Positions 40,645 through 46,000 of a stretch of DNA of 64,000 nt are shown here, in pieces (the first letter of the stretch is position 1; the number at the start of each line of letters is the position of its first letter). The DNA lies in contig JBHGAY010000010.1 in NCBI GenBank assembly GCA_041946735.1, positions 64,001 through 128,000 on the forward strand. The letters are read 5' to 3'. The DNA comes from Candidatus Eiseniibacteriota bacterium (lineage in GTDB: Bacteria > Eisenbacteria > RBG-16-71-46 > CAIMUX01 > VGJL01). A model generated the notes under the pieces. That model saw only the letters and a list, made by a program, of their open reading frames with translations, ran no database searches and was not told where the DNA came from. A program made the translations under genes and the position numbers.

Positions 40645-41544
40645 CTACCGTTCCGGCGAGCGCCCGCCGCGCCGGTAGCCCCGCTCGCTGCGGACGCCCC
40701 GGCTGCTGCTACCGCTGCCGCTGCTGCCGACGCCGCCGCCGCTGCCGACCGGGTAGACGTTCTCTCCCGGCAACCAGTACTTCTCGCGCGCGTAGTGCGC
40801 GTAGAGCCGGTCCTCGTAGTCCCGCGTCGGTGGAGCGGAGCGATCGTAGATGGGGGAAGAGGCGATCGTCTCCCGCTTCAGATCCACGTGCACGCGCTCG
40901 TCCGTCCAGCGGATCTCCTTGATCCAGGCGGGAGCGATCAGCACGTCGTGCCCCGAGAACCAGCCGCCGGTGTCGGCCACCAGGTAGCGGACGATCCACA
41001 TGTTCTCGTCGATCAGGAAGTCGCGCACGTGGCCGATCTCCCCGTCTTCCGCCTCGATCCGGTACCCGTCGACCTCCTTCGCGCCGCGCAAGTGAGGATC
41101 GCCTTTCTCCTCCTCCTCTTTCACGGATTCCCACATCGGAGGCTCCTTCTCGTCCGGGCGCTCCCCGCTCGCCACGCGATCCGGATAGAGACCGAGCGTG
41201 CGCGCGCTCGCGAGCGACGAGCCTCCCCAATAGAGGGGCCAGCCGTAGTACATGTGAAGGGCGATCTCGTGCTGCCGCTCGACCGGCCTGTCGGTGTCGA
41301 TGTCCGGCGCGTTGCGGATCTGCTCGCGCGTCAGCCGCGACGGCATCGCCTTCTCCCCGCTTCGCGGACGTTCGAAGGACGACGGGACGAGGAGAACCTT
41401 GCGACCCGGAAGCCAGCTTCCCGTGTCGACGACCAGATAGCGCACATCCCAAGTTGCATCATCGAAGTAGAGATCGTCGACGGACCCGATCTCGCCGTCA
41501 CGGGCCGCGATGTGGAAATGCTTGAGGTGCTCGAACGAGAGCAT
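40645..41544 (-). CDS. Tandem PRC-barrel domain protein
   Basis: Two repeats of DGEIGxVxD...D..W.VRYLV.DTG.W..G..VL; AAGGAGG SD. Confidence 0.9.
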   Translation of the reverse strand: MLSFEHLKHFHIAARDGEIGSVDDLYFDDATWDVRYLVVDTGSWLPGRKVLLVPSSFERPRSGEKAMPSRLTREQIRNAPDIDTDRPVERQHEIALHMYYGWPLYWGGSSLASARTLGLYPDRVASGERPDEKEPPMWESVKEEEEKGDPHLRGAKEVDGYRIEAEDGEIGHVRDFLIDENMWIVRYLVADTGGWFSGHDVLIAPAWIKEIRWTDERVHVDLKRETIASSPIYDRSAPPTRDYEDRLYAHYAREKYWLPGENVYPVGSGGGVGSSGSGSSSRGVRSERGYRRGGRSPER

Positions 41545-41754
41545 TGTGGGCCTCCTTCCGGTGAATCGTCTTGCGCGCCCCTCTCCCGCCTTCCCCTTCC
41601 ATTCCCTTCCTCTTCCTGTCCTCATCTCCTTCTTCCCATCGTAGGGCAGAGCATCGCCTCCGCTTCTCTCGCGCCGCGGACGATCGCATGCAGGCCTGGA
41701 AATGTGAGCCGCCGCCGGTTTCTTTTCCGGGTCGTGCAACATGAACTTTCTTGC

Positions 41755-41769
41755 CGGCATGAACCGTGC
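41755..41769 (+). promoter_or_regulatory. Putative sigma-54 promoter
   Basis: CGGCATGAACCGTGC = GG-N10-GC; similar to the 9443 site. Confidence 0.35.
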
Positions 41770-42970: not shown

Positions 42971-43174
42971 GGCGTTCCGTGAGACGCTGACCTCCGCATC
43001 CAGGCCGGGCGGCCCGAACGCCGATTTCGGGAGGGGTGCCGGGACGGCGGGATCTGGCCAGCGAAGGGGGAACCTGATAGCCTGCCGTCAAGCGGGCCGG
43101 AACATCCCCCAGGGCCCGAGCGCGCGGCCGCGAGGCGGCCGCCATGGATTCCCACCCGACAGATAGGAGGCCCA

Positions 43175-44734
43175 TTGGGCTTCGACGATCCCTCCGAACA
43201 GCAGGGGAGAGAACCGGGACGGAGCAGCCGGATGCCGGACAGGCATCGAGACCGCCGTCGCCGCGCCCGGCCGACCACCGACAGGACCGAGGAAACCCAC
43301 CCTGGCAGCTCCGCCGAGCTGGAAGGACCGATGGTCGGCCCCATCGAACGCCGCGAAGGTCCGCGGGGCAACGGAGCCTCTGGCGCCGGTCGTGAGCATC
43401 CCCGGTCTCGCGCCCGGGCCCACGACCGGGAGCGAAACCGCGCGGGCGACCAGGAGCGCGACCGAGACCGCAACCGCTCCGCTGACCAGGACCGCGACCA
43501 CCGGGCGCGCGAGCAGGGCGGCGGCCGCAACCACCATGCCGGCCGCCAAGGAGGCCGTGAGCCGAATGCCGGCCGCCAAGCAGGCCGCGAGCCGAATGCC
43601 GGCCGCCAAGCAGGCCGCGAGTCGAATGCCGGTGGCCATCGCGAACGCGAGCAGCGAGGCGACCGCGGCCGGGACAGGGGTCGCGCCACCGGCGAGCCCG
43701 CCCGCGCTCCGCTGAACGCACGCCGGCATCGGCCCTCCGGCGGGAACGGCGTGGCCCCGGCCGCCGGGGACCGCGCCCACCGCGGATCGGGACGCCGCTC
43801 GTACGCGAGCGAACGCGGACCGGCGGCACGCGGGAGGGGAGGCGACCGGCGTGGAGCGCGACGCGACCTGGACGACCTCTTCCGCCAGCTGCAGCGAGGG
43901 ACCAGCGTCGACCCGCACGAGTGGCTCCGCCTGGAGACGGAGCCGGGCGCCATCTCGATGCGCGCGATGGACCTGATCGCTCCGATCGGCAAGGGGCAAC
44001 GCTGCCTGATCGTCGCTCCGCCGAAGGCGGGCAAGACCACCTTCCTGATGGACGTCGCTCATGCGATCGAGCGCAACCATCCGGAGGTCAGCGTCTACGC
44101 CTTGCTCGTCGACGAGCGGCCCGAGGAGGTGACGCATTTCCGGCGCGGCGTCCGCGCAGAGGTCTACGCCGCTTCGTCCGATCTTTCCGCGAAAGAGCAC
44201 GTCGAGAAGGCCGAGGAGGCGATGCGGGTCATTCTCGAACGGGTTCTCGCCGGGGAGGACGTCCTCCTCCTGCTCGATTCGATCACGCGTCTCGCGCGCG
44301 CCTACAACAACGTGGTCGAAGGGACCGGCCGCACCCTGACCGGAGGACTCGATGCGGGGACGATGCAGGCGCCGCGGCAGGTGTTCGGCGCCGCGCGCAA
44401 GATCGAGGAAGGCGGGAGCCTCACGATCCTCGGCACCGCGCTCATCGATACCGGCTCGCGTATGGACGAAGTGATCTTCCAGGAGTTCAAGGGGACGGGG
44501 AACACCGAGCTGGTCCTATCGCGCGAGCTGTTCGAGAGGCGGATCTTCCCCTGCATCGACATCGCGAAGAGCGGCAGCCGCAAAGAGGAGAAGCTCGTCG
44601 ATCCTCAGCTCCTCCCGAAGCTTCACCTGCTGCGCCGCGTTCTCGCCGGCAAGAAGGCCGACGAGGCGATGAACGGGCTGCTCGGGCTGTTGCAGCGATT
44701 CCCGACGAACCGGGAGCTGCTCCTCGGGATCTGA
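43175..44734 (+). CDS. rho: Transcription termination factor Rho, atypical (disordered N-terminus, no OB RNA-binding domain)
   Basis: PIGKGQR..IVAPPKAGKT, DERPEEVT, LDSITRLARAYN, FGAAR, TGSRMDEVIFQEFKGTGN, SGSRKEE; AGGAGG SD before TTG. Confidence 0.93.
   Translation: MGFDDPSEQQGREPGRSSRMPDRHRDRRRRARPTTDRTEETHPGSSAELEGPMVGPIERREGPRGNGASGAGREHPRSRARAHDRERNRAGDQERDRDRNRSADQDRDHRAREQGGGRNHHAGRQGGREPNAGRQAGREPNAGRQAGRESNAGGHREREQRGDRGRDRGRATGEPARAPLNARRHRPSGGNGVAPAAGDRAHRGSGRRSYASERGPAARGRGGDRRGARRDLDDLFRQLQRGTSVDPHEWLRLETEPGAISMRAMDLIAPIGKGQRCLIVAPPKAGKTTFLMDVAHAIERNHPEVSVYALLVDERPEEVTHFRRGVRAEVYAASSDLSAKEHVEKAEEAMRVILERVLAGEDVLLLLDSITRLARAYNNVVEGTGRTLTGGLDAGTMQAPRQVFGAARKIEEGGSLTILGTALIDTGSRMDEVIFQEFKGTGNTELVLSRELFERRIFPCIDIAKSGSRKEEKLVDPQLLPKLHLLRRVLAGKKADEAMNGLLGLLQRFPTNRELLLGI
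43536..43632 (+). repeat. ~3 x 30-bp in-frame repeat (NAGRQAGREP) in the Rho N-terminus
   Basis: atgccggccgccaagcaggccgcgagccga units. Confidence 0.9.
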
Positions 44735-44832
44735 GGATCGCCGGACGGGCGGATGGGCCAATCGGCCGACCGCCGGATAGACGGATCGCCGGATCGTGAC
44801 ATGACGAACCGCCGCTGTTCTCGGCCCCTCGC

Positions 44833-45888
44833 CTACGCGCAGATTCGGATCCGCCCGGTCCCCGCGCGCGACGCGACCCGTCCGATCTGCACCGCCGTCA
44901 GCACCCCCCGGTTGCGGAACGCCTGTGCGAGATCGGCCGCCTGCGCTTCGGCGACGGCGATCAGCAGCCCGCCCGAGGTCTGCGGATCGAAGAGCAGGTC
45001 GTCGAGCGCCTCGTCGATCCAAACGCTCCTCTCCAGGAACGGCTCGACGTAGCGACGGTTCGCGTTGAGGCCGCCCGGCTTGTGTCCCGCCTTGGCGTGG
45101 TCGAACGACCCCGGCAGCAGCGGGACGGAGGAGGCGTCGATCTCGGCATCGACTCGCGAGGCGCGAACGAGCTCGAGGAGGTGCCCGAGGAGTCCGAATC
45201 CGGTGACGTCGGTGCAGGCATGGACCCCCACGATCTGCATCGCTTCCGCGGCCGCGCGGTTCAGCTCCTTCATCGACGAAACGGCGCCGCGCAGGTAGTC
45301 CGGCTCGAGCTCCCCTCGCTTCAACGCAGTCGTCAGCACGCCGGTCCCGATCGGCTTGGTCAGGAACAGCGCGTCGCCCTCGACCGCGGCGGCGTTGGTG
45401 AGAACCCGATCCGGATGGATCGTTCCGGTGACCGAAAGGCCGTAGAAAAGCTCCGGCGCCTTGACCGAATGTCCGCCGACCAGCACGGCGCCCGCATCGT
45501 GGACGACATCGTGGCCGCCTCGCAGGATCGCGGCGAGCGTCTCCCAGGGAAGCTCTCCCTGCGGCCACCCGACGACGTTCATCGCCGTCCGGGGGATTCC
45601 TCCCATCGCGTAGACGTCGGAGAGCGAGTTGGCGGCCGAGATCGCGCCGAAGTCGTACGGGTCGTCGACGATCGGCGTGAAGTAGTCGACCGTCTGGATG
45701 AGGGCGATCTCGGGCGTGAGACGATAGACCCCGGCGTCATCGTGGGTCTCGGTTCCCACGAGCAGATCGGGATGTTCGTCCCTCGGAAGCGTGGCGAGCA
45801 CCTGCTCCAGGTCCCCCGGAGCGATCTTCGACGCTCACCCCGCGCAGGCGGCCATCTCGGTGAGCCGCTTGTGCTGCTCGGCGCTCAC
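44833..45888 (-). CDS. selD: Selenide, water dikinase (selenoprotein; Sec at codon 18)
   Basis: AGGAGG SD + GTG, then SAEQHKRLTEMAACAG-U-ASKIAPGDL; in-frame TGA at 45835-45837; DDAGVY, TVDYFTP, NSLSDVYAMGG, GGHS, TDVTGFGLLGH, DPQTSGGLL. Confidence 0.95.
45804..45822 (-). promoter_or_regulatory. Putative bacterial SECIS hairpin
   Basis: GCUCCGGG-GGA-CCUGGAGC stem-loop starting 12 nt after the UGA. Confidence 0.7.
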
Positions 45889-45928
45889 GCCTCCTCCTTC
45901 CTGTTCTTTGCGACGGACCGTCCGCTCG

Positions 45929-46000
45929 TATCGTACCCGTGAGACTTATCGTACCCGTGAGACCTATCGTACCCGTGAGACTTCTCGCACGCGTGCGACT
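45929..46000. repeat. 3 near-perfect + 1 degenerate 18-bp tandem repeat upstream of selD
   Basis: tatcgtacccgtgagact / tatcgtacccgtgagacc / tatcgtacccgtgagact / tctcgcacgcgtgcgact. Confidence 0.95.

What the first reader, a model, noticed from the sequence alone, without database searches (positions are those of the whole stretch)
43175..44734. Rho lacking its primary RNA-binding domain, replaced by a ~230-aa charged disordered region
Seen: after an R/D/G/E-rich low-complexity N-terminus (RDRDR runs, 10-aa NAGRQAGREP repeats, RGG-like motifs), the ORF enters the ATPase domain directly at 'VDPHEWLRLE'. No OB-fold motifs (GxGFLR, DIYVS..QIRRF.LR.GD) are visible in this or the other translated frames, while Walker A/B, Q-loop and R-loop are intact. 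Established: Rho normally loads on rut sites through the OB domain; Rhos with N-terminal insertions (Mycobacterium, Bacteroides, Clostridium) keep it, and the Bacteroides IDR drives phase separation. Inference: a specialised Rho paralogue that binds RNA through an IDR or condensate, or co-assembles with and modulates a canonical Rho.
Basis: partly seen in the sequence, partly recalled or inferred. Interest (0 to 1): 0.82.

Follow-up and report, generated by a model that had tools for sequence, protein, structure and literature searches.

The report
Rho paralogue without its RNA-binding domain
This gene encodes a second copy of the bacterial transcription terminator Rho that keeps the ATP-driven motor but has swapped its folded RNA-recognition domain for a long, arginine-rich floppy tail, and the same design is conserved across many related uncultured bacteria.

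Summary
ORF 43175..44734 (+, 519 aa) matches Rho models only from the start of the C-terminal ATPase domain (residues 242-516). No Rho_N or Rho_RNA_bind signal exists in any frame of the window. Residues 1-223 are 24% Arg, 17% Gly, net +19, and AlphaFold2 predicts no structure there.

It is not an artefact. An independent metagenome run carries the tail-to-ATPase joint without differences. ATPase-domain dN/dS against same-family orthologues is 0.12-0.18. The genome also holds a canonical Rho on another contig.

One-copy orthologues occur in 111 of 206 genomes of the phylum, and 20 of 20 sampled lack the OB. On an ATPase-domain tree the OB-less proteins form one clade (SH-aLRT 99). They sit next to paralogues whose OB survives but has lost the canonical RNA-contact residues.

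An "M-x(2-12)-RRR" N-terminal motif lies in the ATPase frame in 30 of 55 orthologues, against 1 and 0 in the other frames. This supports translation of the tail.

The class is already catalogued: "Rho-like ATPase domain", 28 sequences, called non-functional in the supplement of Moreira et al. 2024. It is uncharacterised. The mechanism is inferred: IDR-mediated RNA loading by an autonomous ring, or mixed rings with canonical Rho.

The parts
43175..44734 (+). Whole ORF of the OB-less Rho paralogue (519 aa from TTG; stop included)
43165..43170 (+). AGGAGG Shine-Dalgarno-like hexamer, 4 nt before the TTG at 43175
   Evidence: The orthologue L087 also has AAGGAG before a TTG, and the same N-terminal G-F-(D/E)-D-P.
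43232..43273 (+). Alternative ATG start followed by the poly-Arg motif (MPDRHRDRRRRARP, residues 20-33). This is the conserved N-terminal 'M-x(2-12)-RRR' motif of the family.
   Evidence: the motif is in the ATPase frame in 30 of 55 orthologues, against 1 and 0 in the other two frames. L088 starts MPD...RRR.
43175..43843 (+). Arg/Gly/Asp/Glu-rich disordered tail (residues 1-223)
   Evidence: AF2 10-residue block means of pLDDT are 43-53 with no secondary structure. Composition of the 235 residues before the blast-defined ATPase start: R 24%, K 0%, G 17%, D+E 16%, net +19, hydrophobic 5%.
43536..43632 (+). 30-bp tandem repeat x3.2, encoding the NAGRQAGRE(P/S) units
   Evidence: Short-read contigs break here and word depth is 83.7 against about 27 beside it. 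Copy number is therefore consistent with about 3 but is not bridged by any contig.
43844..43897 (+). Connector helix (residues 224-241), taking the place of the OB-to-ATPase linker
   Evidence: helix 224-241; 10-residue block means of pLDDT 75-94 over residues 221-240. The S-[IV]-D-P that follows is invariant in the family.
43898..44722 (+). Rho-type RecA ATPase domain (residues 242-516)
   Evidence: model positions 136-410. Foldseek best hit 5jjl_F, E 1.5e-31, 290 columns, rmsd 2.0, 48% identity.
44018..44038 (+). Walker A, PPKAGKT (residues 282-288)
   Evidence: Invariant columns in A1; alignment.
44111..44128 (+). DERPEE with the catalytic Glu314 and Arg315 (E211/R212 in E. coli numbering; numbering recalled)
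44264..44281 (+). Walker B region, with D368
44315..44353 (+). Q-loop (residues 381-393), with the clade-specific changes K283R and V/I284T
44447..44461 (+). R-loop (residues 425-429, DTGSR)
44579..44581 (+). Arg finger R469 (R366 in E. coli numbering; numbering recalled)
   Evidence: Invariant in A1.

Best explanation
This is a real, conserved second Rho-family protein. It keeps the complete ring-motor half of Rho: the RecA ATPase with Walker A/B, catalytic Glu, Arg finger, and the Q- and R-loops that line the central RNA channel. It has lost both N-terminal folded modules, the Rho_N helix bundle and the OB-fold primary RNA-binding site.

In their place is a fast-evolving, net-positive, Arg/Gly-rich disordered tail that begins with a poly-Arg motif.

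Shown: the architecture, its conservation, purifying selection on the motor, co-existence with a canonical Rho, and descent from paralogues whose OB had already lost the canonical RNA-contact residues.

Inferred: it assembles into a homo-hexameric 5'->3' RNA translocase. Its six cationic tails capture RNA electrostatically, without the pyrimidine-specific pockets of the OB. This would feed RNA to the central channel and give a second, rut-independent termination or RNA-remodelling activity in a 68%-GC organism whose canonical Rho has no such tail.
For: Architecture. With custom canonical-OB and degenerate-OB HMMs run with --max, the window protein gets no hit. AF2 and Foldseek agree with this domain layout.

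Motor intact: the catalytic, Q-loop and R-loop residues are invariant in 66 family members. Only conservative clade-specific changes are seen.

Selection: dN/dS is 0.12-0.18 against four same-family orthologues.

Not an assembly artefact: record 11 of run X2, from a different study, spans 43763-44136 with 0 differences.

Family:
- The best 120 database hits all lack PF07497.
- 111 of 206 genomes of the phylum have one orthologue at E<=1e-98 (this count includes one unpublished genome, G072).
- 0 of 20 sampled orthologues have an OB hit below E 0.1.
- The OB-less proteins are one clade, SH-aLRT 99.

PBS decay before loss: in the neighbouring paralogues the positions of F62, F64, R66, Y80, E108 and Y110 are mostly replaced. 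The roles of these residues are recalled.

Tail translated:
- The N-terminal M-x(2-12)-RRR motif is in frame in 30 of 55 orthologues, against 1 and 0 in the other frames.
- A tail motif in a sister lineage varies at codon positions 1/2/3 in 4/1/13 sites.
- The window and L087 share a TTG start preceded by a Shine-Dalgarno-like sequence.
- All repeat periods inside the tail are multiples of 3.
- All 35 examined tails are net positive, +7 to +39.

Analogy: the disordered insertion of M. tuberculosis Rho is needed for productive RNA recruitment (abstract of PMC13650167).
Against: There is no functional data of any kind, and no RNA run was listed for this sequence.

In canonical Rho, OB-site occupancy promotes loading and ring closure (recalled). 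A motor without the OB might therefore be inert by itself. Moreira et al. 2024 state, without experiments, that ATPase-only sequences 'are not functional Rho factors'.

Arg-richness is not frame-specific in this GC-rich DNA. The ATPase frame had the highest Arg content in only 15 of 55 orthologues. Composition alone therefore does not prove that the tail is translated.

The tails cannot be aligned even between genera of one family, and tail length varies from 45 to 531 aa. Any tail function must be compositional rather than sequence-specific.

The paralogue was never found without a canonical Rho. This fits dependence on canonical Rho as well as it fits specialisation.
Confidence: 0.5

Rival explanations
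1. It is a subunit of mixed rings. The OB-less protein co-assembles with canonical Rho. In trans it either donates cationic disordered tails, a split version of the M. tuberculosis insertion, or lowers the number of OB sites per ring and so tunes termination.
For: Every relative with the paralogue also has a second Rho hit: 17 of 17. All 13 of these that were fetched are canonical, with the GYGFLRS and DDIYVSPSQIKRF motifs.

The ATPase domains are 55% identical, with shared Arg finger and nucleotide-pocket residues.

Moreira et al. 2024 raise hetero-hexamers for short second Rhos (section 27).

The heterodimer prediction gave weak support. The score was 0.37 and the best of 3 controls was 0.14. 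That mark was reached by 116 of 157 solved complexes and by 2 of 215 mismatched pairs. At scores of 0.60 or under, however, it was reached by only 18 of those 157 and by both mismatches that passed. The runs agree in at least 90% of contacts and the partner's pLDDT is at least 87. Rho rings are solved structures, so this pass may only reflect likeness.
Against: The prediction cannot tell hetero- from homo-assembly. Fifteen positions are fixed differently in the two clades, and the paralogue clade sits on long branches. Both fit insulation after duplication. The genes are unlinked, on different contigs, with no conserved neighbourhood.
Confidence: 0.25
2. It is a Rho-derived motor that has left transcription termination. 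The ring ATPase acts on another nucleic-acid or ribonucleoprotein substrate, for example R-loops, ribosome or RNA-granule remodelling, or RNA decay. The tail would serve as a localisation or condensate module.
For: Both modules that canonical Rho uses for rut recognition, and (recalled) for contacts in RNAP pre-termination complexes, are gone. The tail composition resembles RGG/Arg-rich low-complexity regions. Lineage-specific short tail motifs look like protein- or RNA-docking motifs: EGIRDATASR..AAE, and N[SA]APQPY seen by eye in the printed tails.
Against: The Q- and R-loops of the RNA channel are kept almost unchanged. This argues for single-stranded RNA translocation as in Rho. No conserved gene neighbour points to another pathway.
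Confidence: 0.15
3. The long tail is not made. The real product would be the ATPase domain with a short basic leader, starting at GTG 43751 (327 aa, as the gene caller chose). The upstream open frame would be a by-product of 76-79% GC.
For: The protein collection holds the 327-aa call. High-GC DNA leaves many frames open: three long antisense ORFs overlap the tail. Codon-position GC in the tail is GC1 > GC3 > GC2, unlike the ATPase part. Arg-richness appears in two frames. Orthologues L088 and L089 manage with tails of 45 and 66 aa.
Against: The M-x(2-12)-RRR motif is in the ATPase frame 216 codons upstream, as in 30 of 55 orthologues (1 and 0 in the other frames). The window and L087 share a TTG start preceded by a Shine-Dalgarno-like sequence. 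In the 45 codons upstream, 0 of 55 orthologues have a stop in frame, against 8 and 15 in the other frames. The repeat periods are multiples of 3. Even the 327-aa product has no OB and keeps a 43-aa basic tail, so the core finding stands either way.
Confidence: 0.08
4. It is an artefact or a decaying gene: a misassembly or frameshift removed the OB, or the gene is a pseudogene remnant.
For: Short-read contigs break at the 30-bp repeat.
Against: The joint is identical in an independent run. There is no OB signal in any frame. The same architecture is found on more than 100 independent genomes. dN/dS is 0.12-0.18. The frame is intact from the start codon to model position 410 of 413.
Confidence: 0.02

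Closest known systems
Canonical transcription termination factor Rho (TIGR00767 / NF006886; E. coli type)
   Same: The ATPase domain has the same fold and motifs: 48% identity to E. coli Rho chains over about 290 columns at rmsd about 2 A, and 55% identity to the genome's own Rho. Walker A/B, catalytic Glu, Arg finger, Q-loop and R-loop are kept.
   Different: There is no Rho_N and no OB primary RNA-binding site. The score is below the TIGR00767 cut-off, 358.9 against 509.45. Fifteen positions are fixed differently from canonical Rho.
'Rho-like ATPase domain' sequences of Moreira et al., NAR 2024 (PMC11347177, supplementary text and Table S3)
   Same: The definition is the same: only the Rho ATPase domain is detectable. 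Some entries have the same layout, for example Myxococcus xanthus WP_020480701.1 (516 aa, ATPase 234-515) and Corallococcus (530 aa).
   Different: That list has 28 sequences, from Myxococcota, Pseudomonadota, Verrucomicrobiota, Chloroflexota, Actinomycetota and Rhodothermota. None of the 28 rows printed is from Eisenbacteria, Krumholzibacteriota or Gemmatimonadota. The sequences are dismissed there as non-functional, with no analysis of tails, selection or phylogeny (passages seen). Whether they share the OB loss of this clade was not tested here.
Short second Rho ('group B' / Type 4; NCBIfam NF041509 paralog_Rho2, short form)
   Same: It is also a second rho gene in the genome that lacks the N-terminal helix bundle, with catalytic residues conserved.
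   Different: Those proteins keep an RNA-binding domain (Type 4 definition). The window protein matches only positions 84-358 of the 360-position NF041509 model, at 329 bits against a cut-off of 628.
Rho factors with disordered N-terminal insertions (M. tuberculosis NID; Bacteroides thetaiotaomicron IDR)
   Same: All have an Arg/Gly-rich, disordered, cationic region N-terminal to the motor. In M. tuberculosis that region is critical for engaging structured RNA sites (abstract). In Bacteroides it drives condensates (review passage).
   Different: In those proteins the IDR is inserted within the N-terminal domain (review passage), and the OB is kept. Here the IDR replaces both folded N-terminal modules.
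Degenerate-OB Rho paralogues found here (Thermoanaerobaculia/Acidobacteriota loci L024-L085; 366-aa short forms in family f3, L106-L115)
   Same: They are the nearest branches on the ATPase tree and share most clade-specific substitutions. The Thermoanaerobaculia forms also begin with M...RRRRRRR followed by an IDR.
   Different: They still have an OB-like fold, with PF07497 scores of 17-57 bits against 117.5 for canonical Rho. In that fold the canonical RNA-contact positions are mostly replaced.

Membership tests
Rho transcription termination factor (functional Rho = RNA-binding + ATPase domains) | Rho-type RecA ATPase domain with Walker A/B, catalytic Glu, Arg valve and Arg finger | tested here: met
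Rho transcription termination factor (functional Rho = RNA-binding + ATPase domains) | Q-loop and R-loop (secondary RNA-binding site in the channel) | tested here: met
   Both are present. K283R and V284T are fixed in the clade.
Rho transcription termination factor (functional Rho = RNA-binding + ATPase domains) | OB-fold primary RNA-binding domain (PF07497) | tested here: not met
   absent at E<=1; six frames, E<=10; two custom HMMs run with --max.
Rho transcription termination factor (functional Rho = RNA-binding + ATPase domains) | N-terminal helix bundle (PF07498 Rho_N) | tested here: not met
   AF2 shows no structure before residue 224.
Rho transcription termination factor (functional Rho = RNA-binding + ATPase domains) | Curated whole-protein score cut-off | tested here: inconclusive
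   TIGR00767 scores 358.9, below its cut-off of 509.45 (fails). NF006886 scores 370.8, above its cut-off of 315 (passes, so pipelines name it Rho).
Rho transcription termination factor (functional Rho = RNA-binding + ATPase domains) | Hexameric ring, RNA-dependent ATPase, termination of transcription | not testable with these tools
   The only assembly evidence is a heterodimer prediction with weak support.
NCBIfam NF041509 paralog_Rho2 (Rho, short form) | Score at or above the 628-bit cut-off over the whole 360-position model | tested here: not met
   329 bits, model positions 84-358 only. None of the 12 proteins scanned (11 paralogues and the genome's canonical Rho) reaches the cut-off either.
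'Rho-like ATPase domain' class (Moreira et al. 2024, supplement) | The Rho ATPase domain is the only detectable Rho domain | tested here: met
   The class definition was seen.
Rho with N-terminal insertion domain (Type 2; Mtb NID, Bacteroides IDR) | Disordered region inserted between retained Rho_N and OB domains | tested here: not met
   The disordered region is present, but both flanking domains are absent.

The most novel reading that the evidence does not exclude
A disordered, poly-Arg-capped cationic tail fully replaces the folded OB primary binding site. The result is an autonomous Rho ring that loads on RNA without pyrimidine-rich rut sites, possibly inside condensates. It would run a second, sequence-agnostic termination or RNA-clearing pathway alongside canonical Rho in high-GC bacteria. 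The family also records the path: PBS contact residues lost first, then the OB fold, then IDR expansion.
Probability: 0.35. Interest if true: 0.8.

Novelty: new member of a known kind. Interest (0 to 1): 0.52.

Why it matters
Rho's two-site model says the OB primary site selects transcripts and licenses ring closure. A conserved lineage keeps the motor under purifying selection and has discarded that site. It is present in 111 of 206 genomes of one phylum, and Atlas clusters point to similar proteins in Planctomycetota and Methylomirabilota.

This gives a natural experiment on two questions: whether a disordered cationic region can substitute for a folded RNA-binding domain, and how duplicated ring ATPases divide labour or mix.

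It also has practical consequences. Annotation pipelines name these proteins plain 'Rho'. Surveys that require the RNA-binding domain discard them as non-functional.

Tried and rejected
1. Arg-content-by-frame test for tail translation. It does not discriminate: the ATPase frame was highest in only 15 of 55 orthologues.
2. DNA alignment of the window tail against the closest long-tailed orthologue, L087. Identity was 49%, so the tails are effectively unalignable. The gap-length test (2 of 9 gaps a multiple of 3) is meaningless on such an alignment.
3. Codon-position GC in the tail is ambiguous.
4. Conserved gene neighbourhood. Across 19 loci nothing is shared beyond the gene itself and its shadow ORFs. 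The downstream AIR-synthase-like gene is shared only with two same-family genomes.
5. Regulatory RNA or terminator signals. There are 0 promoter-like sites and 1 terminator-like site, at shuffle level. The only Rfam match is E 0.46, far under its gathering score. Folds of the leader and of the 3' intergenic repeat give z-scores of 0.14 and -0.57.
6. Expression. No RNA holder was listed.
7. Earlier findings of this scan. Nothing was returned. One search was a malformed query.
8. Membership of NF041509 was rejected on score.
9. Misassembly was rejected.
10. Literature searches and passages of a 2025 Rho review turned up no study of ATPase-only Rho proteins beyond the supplement of Moreira et al. 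2024. The 'Rho-like' protein of PMC13613805 is a different thing: Rho_N only, in cyanobacteria.
11. The profile search of 1.84 billion representatives. By my HMMs the best 150 hits split into 85 with a canonical OB, 51 with a weak OB and 14 without one. This library carries no names, so it could not place the Myxococcota or Planctomycetota forms.
Full report
THE OBSERVATION

The window has an ORF at 43175..44734 on the + strand, with a TTG start and 519 codons. Pfam finds a single real domain, PF00006, at residues 262-468 (E 1.1e-22). Rho_N and Rho_RNA_bind are absent even at E<=1.

The NCBIfam Rho models align only from their position 136/137 to the end, against residues 242/243-516. NF006886 scores 370.8 bits (cut-off 315). 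TIGR00767 scores 358.9 (cut-off 509.45). The 'short form' model NF041509 scores 329 (cut-off 628), and only over its positions 84-358.

A six-frame search of the whole 4.89-Mb assembly with PF07497 at E<=10 finds one place only, on contig C35, and nothing in the window. A frameshifted or hidden OB is therefore excluded as far as an HMM can see.

The repeat is a 30-bp unit x3.2 at 43536-43632.

IS IT REAL?

Logan contigs of a run from a different study (X2) cover 43763-44136 with no differences. The tail-to-ATPase joint therefore exists independently of this assembly.

Contigs of the probable source run cover the whole stretch in overlapping pieces. They break at the 30-bp repeat, where word depth is 83.7 against about 27 beside it. 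About three copies is plausible, but no contig bridges the repeat.

The ATPase domain is under purifying selection. dN/dS is 0.12-0.18 against the four same-family orthologues, and about 0.3 against two more distant ones.

AlphaFold2, run with a 66-sequence family alignment, gives 10-residue block means of pLDDT of 43-53 and no secondary structure for residues 1-223. A helix follows at 224-241, then a confident RecA domain. Foldseek's best matches are Rho chains: 5jjl_F, E 1.5e-31, 290 columns, rmsd 2.0 A, 48% identity.

A PARALOGUE, NOT THE ORGANISM'S RHO

Contig C35 encodes a full Rho: TIGR00767 724.5 bits, with Rho_N 62.6 bits and Rho_RNA_bind 117.5 bits.

Among 40 relatives, 17 have an orthologue of the window protein at 63-84% identity. 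All 17 also have a second Rho hit at 51-55% identity. I fetched 13 of these second copies, and all 13 are canonical, with GYGFLRS and DDIYVSPSQIKRF. In this sample I found no genome with the paralogue alone.

THE FAMILY

- The best 120 hits in the 5.8-billion-protein collection are 285-485 aa and 64-100% identical. All carry PF00006 without PF07497. A few are named 'transcription termination factor Rho' from Candidatus Eisenbacteria or Krumholzibacteria MAGs.
The best 80 are titled Eisenbacteria/Eiseniibacteriota, Krumholzibacteriota, Gemmatimonadota and Acidobacteriota/Thermoanaerobaculia.
- Across all 206 genomes of the window's phylum, 111 have exactly one hit at E<=1e-98. By family: f1 4/5, f2 12/13, f10 8/8, f15 8/10, f17 78/89, and none in the other 13 families, including f3 0/15 and f18 0/41. 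One unpublished genome, G072, is in these tallies.
- I sampled 20 of these hits from f10, f15 and f17. None has an OB hit below E 0.1 with either of my HMMs.

WHERE THE OB WENT

I classified 110 paralogue sequences with two custom HMMs, one built from canonical OBs and one from degenerate OBs, both run with --max.

- 73 have an OB-like segment.
- 37 have none. Two of these (L025, L103) are cut at a contig edge or have fewer than 30 upstream codons, and I dropped them.
- That leaves 35 OB-less proteins, the window's among them.

Pfam agrees. None of the 33 OB-less proteins I submitted has PF07497 at E<=0.01. The Acidobacteriota forms and the f3 short forms score 17-57 bits.

I built an IQ-TREE 'quick' tree of the ATPase domain. 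It used 65 rows after removing sequences more than 90% identical, with SH-aLRT support only and a midpoint root.

- The 29 OB-less rows form one clade (support 99).
- The 9 canonical rows form another (99).
- The degenerate-OB paralogues lie between them, with the f3 short forms sister to the OB-less clade (88).

In the degenerate OBs, the positions that contact RNA in E. coli Rho are mostly replaced. These are F62, F64, R66, Y80, E108 and Y110. Their roles are recalled, and the numbering is taken from a 419-aa proteobacterial-type Rho, L131. For example, Y80 becomes I/L/V or R, and F62 becomes T/A/S or E.

The simplest history is this: duplication, then loss of Rho_N, then decay of the primary-site residues, and finally loss of the fold in the ancestor of this clade. 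Rooting was not tested, and the sample was chosen by similarity to the window protein.

THE MOTOR

In the 66-sequence alignment the following are invariant: Walker A (K287, T288), E314/R315, D368, R372, the Q-loop G390/G391/D393, the R-loop T426/G427/S428, and R469.

Fifteen positions are fixed differently from canonical Rho: P138S, Y/F140D, I209V, M219F, T231S, K283R, V/I284T, A293T, L294M, K298R, A317G, E333Q, L370K, K385R and F412L. Their structural meaning was not tested.

THE TAIL

The 235 residues before the blast-defined ATPase start are 24% Arg, 0% Lys, 17% Gly, 16% Asp+Glu, net +19, and 5% hydrophobic. All 35 OB-less tails are net positive (+7 to +39). Their lengths run from 45 to 531 aa, counted from the first start codon of the open frame.

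Is the tail translated? Two tests failed.
- Arg-richness is not frame-specific in this DNA: 15 of 55.
- The tails are unalignable, even within the family.

Four observations do support translation.
- An 'M-x(2-12)-RRR' motif lies in the ATPase frame in 30 of 55 orthologues, against 1 and 0 in the other frames of the same DNA. In the window it is MPDRHRDRRRR at ATG 43232, 216 codons upstream of the ATPase start, and L088 begins MPD...RRR.
- In a sister lineage, a 15-residue tail motif (EGIRDATASR..AAE) varies at 4, 1 and 13 sites of codon positions 1, 2 and 3 across six loci.
- The TTG at 43175 follows AGGAGG by 4 nt. L087 has AAGGAG before a TTG and the same G-F-(D/E)-D-P N-terminus.
- All repeat periods in the tail are multiples of three.

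The start is therefore 43175 or 43232. The 327-aa call in the database is probably too short.

CONTEXT

The upstream gene is a trypsin-like peptidase on the same strand. The downstream gene is a convergent AIR-synthase-related gene. Nothing is conserved beyond the family. No Rfam family, promoter-like site or above-chance terminator or fold was found.

MECHANISM

Shown: a conserved Rho motor without either N-terminal module, with a cationic disordered tail, always beside a canonical Rho in the genomes examined.

Inferred, my best reading at 0.5: it forms a homo-hexameric RNA translocase. The six tails replace the OB sites as a non-specific electrostatic RNA tether. This parallels the disordered insertion of M. 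tuberculosis Rho, which is needed for engaging structured sites (abstract), and the condensate-forming IDR of Bacteroides Rho (review passage).

Main rival, at 0.25: mixed rings with canonical Rho, an idea raised for short second Rhos by Moreira et al.. A heterodimer prediction of the two ATPase domains gave weak support. The score was 0.37 against a best control of 0.14. The mark was reached by 116 of 157 solved complexes and 2 of 215 mismatches, but in this low range by only 18 of the 157 and by both mismatches that passed. The runs agree in at least 90% of contacts and the partner's pLDDT is at least 87. Rho rings are solved structures, so this pass may only reflect likeness.

WHAT IS KNOWN

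Moreira et al. 2024 (PMC11347177) define 'functional Rho' as RNA-binding plus ATPase domains. They relegate single-domain 'Rho-like' sequences to the supplement (main-text passages).

[quoted passage not shown] Table S3 lists them, including Myxococcus xanthus at 516 aa with the ATPase at 234-515. That is the same layout as here.

A 2025 review (PMC12360218) has no occurrence of 'Rho-like' and uses 'paralog' only for NusG/RfaH. Five full-text searches found nothing further. The ESM Atlas shows ATPase-only Rho clusters labelled Eiseniibacteriota (68 members), Planctomycetota (100) and Methylomirabilota (52).

The kind is therefore catalogued but unstudied. This is a new, well-supported member, and it comes with a family-level picture that I did not find in print.

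VERDICT

Novelty: a new member of a known but uncharacterised kind. Interest is moderate. It would be high if the tail is shown to replace the primary RNA-binding site.

Noticed in passing
window 44735-44796: A 24-nt tandem repeat (2.4 copies; also readable as an 8-nt period) lies directly after the stop codon, in the 98-nt gap to the convergent AIR-synthase-like gene. Its fold is not better than shuffles (z -0.57).
   Followed up: partly
window 40645-41760 (-): This is a PRC-barrel protein (two PRC stretches, E 1.1e-11). Its C-terminus is a Gly/Ser/Arg-rich low-complexity tail, a second protein with an RG-type tail close by.
   Followed up: no
window about 45850-45960: The ORF translations here show a repeated hexapeptide-coding unit: RETYRT x3 on the + strand, SHGYD(R/K) on the - strand. 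It lies between the AIR-synthase-like gene and the next ORF.
   Followed up: no
window 43078-43083; L088 and L089 just upstream of their ATG: A TAGCCT hexamer (a TANNNT, -10-like pattern) sits 6 nt before the ATG start in two orthologues, which suggests leaderless mRNAs there. The same hexamer lies about 90 nt upstream of the TTG in the window.
   Followed up: no
L106-L115 (genomes of family f3, same order): These genomes carry, instead of the OB-less form, a roughly 366-aa second Rho made only of a degenerate OB and the ATPase domain. It scores below the NF041509 cut-off (356-377 bits against 628).
   Followed up: partly
L027-L085 (Thermoanaerobaculia / Acidobacteriota MAGs): The second Rho here has an ATG two codons after an in-frame stop, then MTPDNRQPRKRRRRRRR, an IDR, a degenerate OB and the ATPase domain. 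This looks like an intermediate architecture.
   Followed up: partly
L131 = G038:C21:4900-7900: A 419-aa proteobacterial-type Rho sits on an 18.6-kb contig of a genome that already has its own canonical Rho and a paralogue. It is probably a contaminant contig. I used it only as a numbering reference.
   Followed up: no
L010, L012, L091, L136, L138, L139 (tails): A short motif, EGIRDATASR(M/I/L)xAA(E/D), is conserved about 45 residues before the connector helix, with third-position-dominated variation. It is absent from the window's tail and its function is unknown.
   Followed up: partly
L141-L146, L149-L155 (family f17 tails): Two motifs recur in these tails: an N-terminal MR(P/Q/S/T)RRRR (counted), often continuing as PRGPRP, and an internal N(S/A)APQPY. 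The latter two were seen by eye in the tails printed and were not counted.
   Followed up: no
window 43751: The protein collection holds this gene as a 327-aa product starting at GTG 43751 (P0002). The evidence here favours a start at 43175 or 43232, so public calls of this family probably often truncate the tail.
   Followed up: partly
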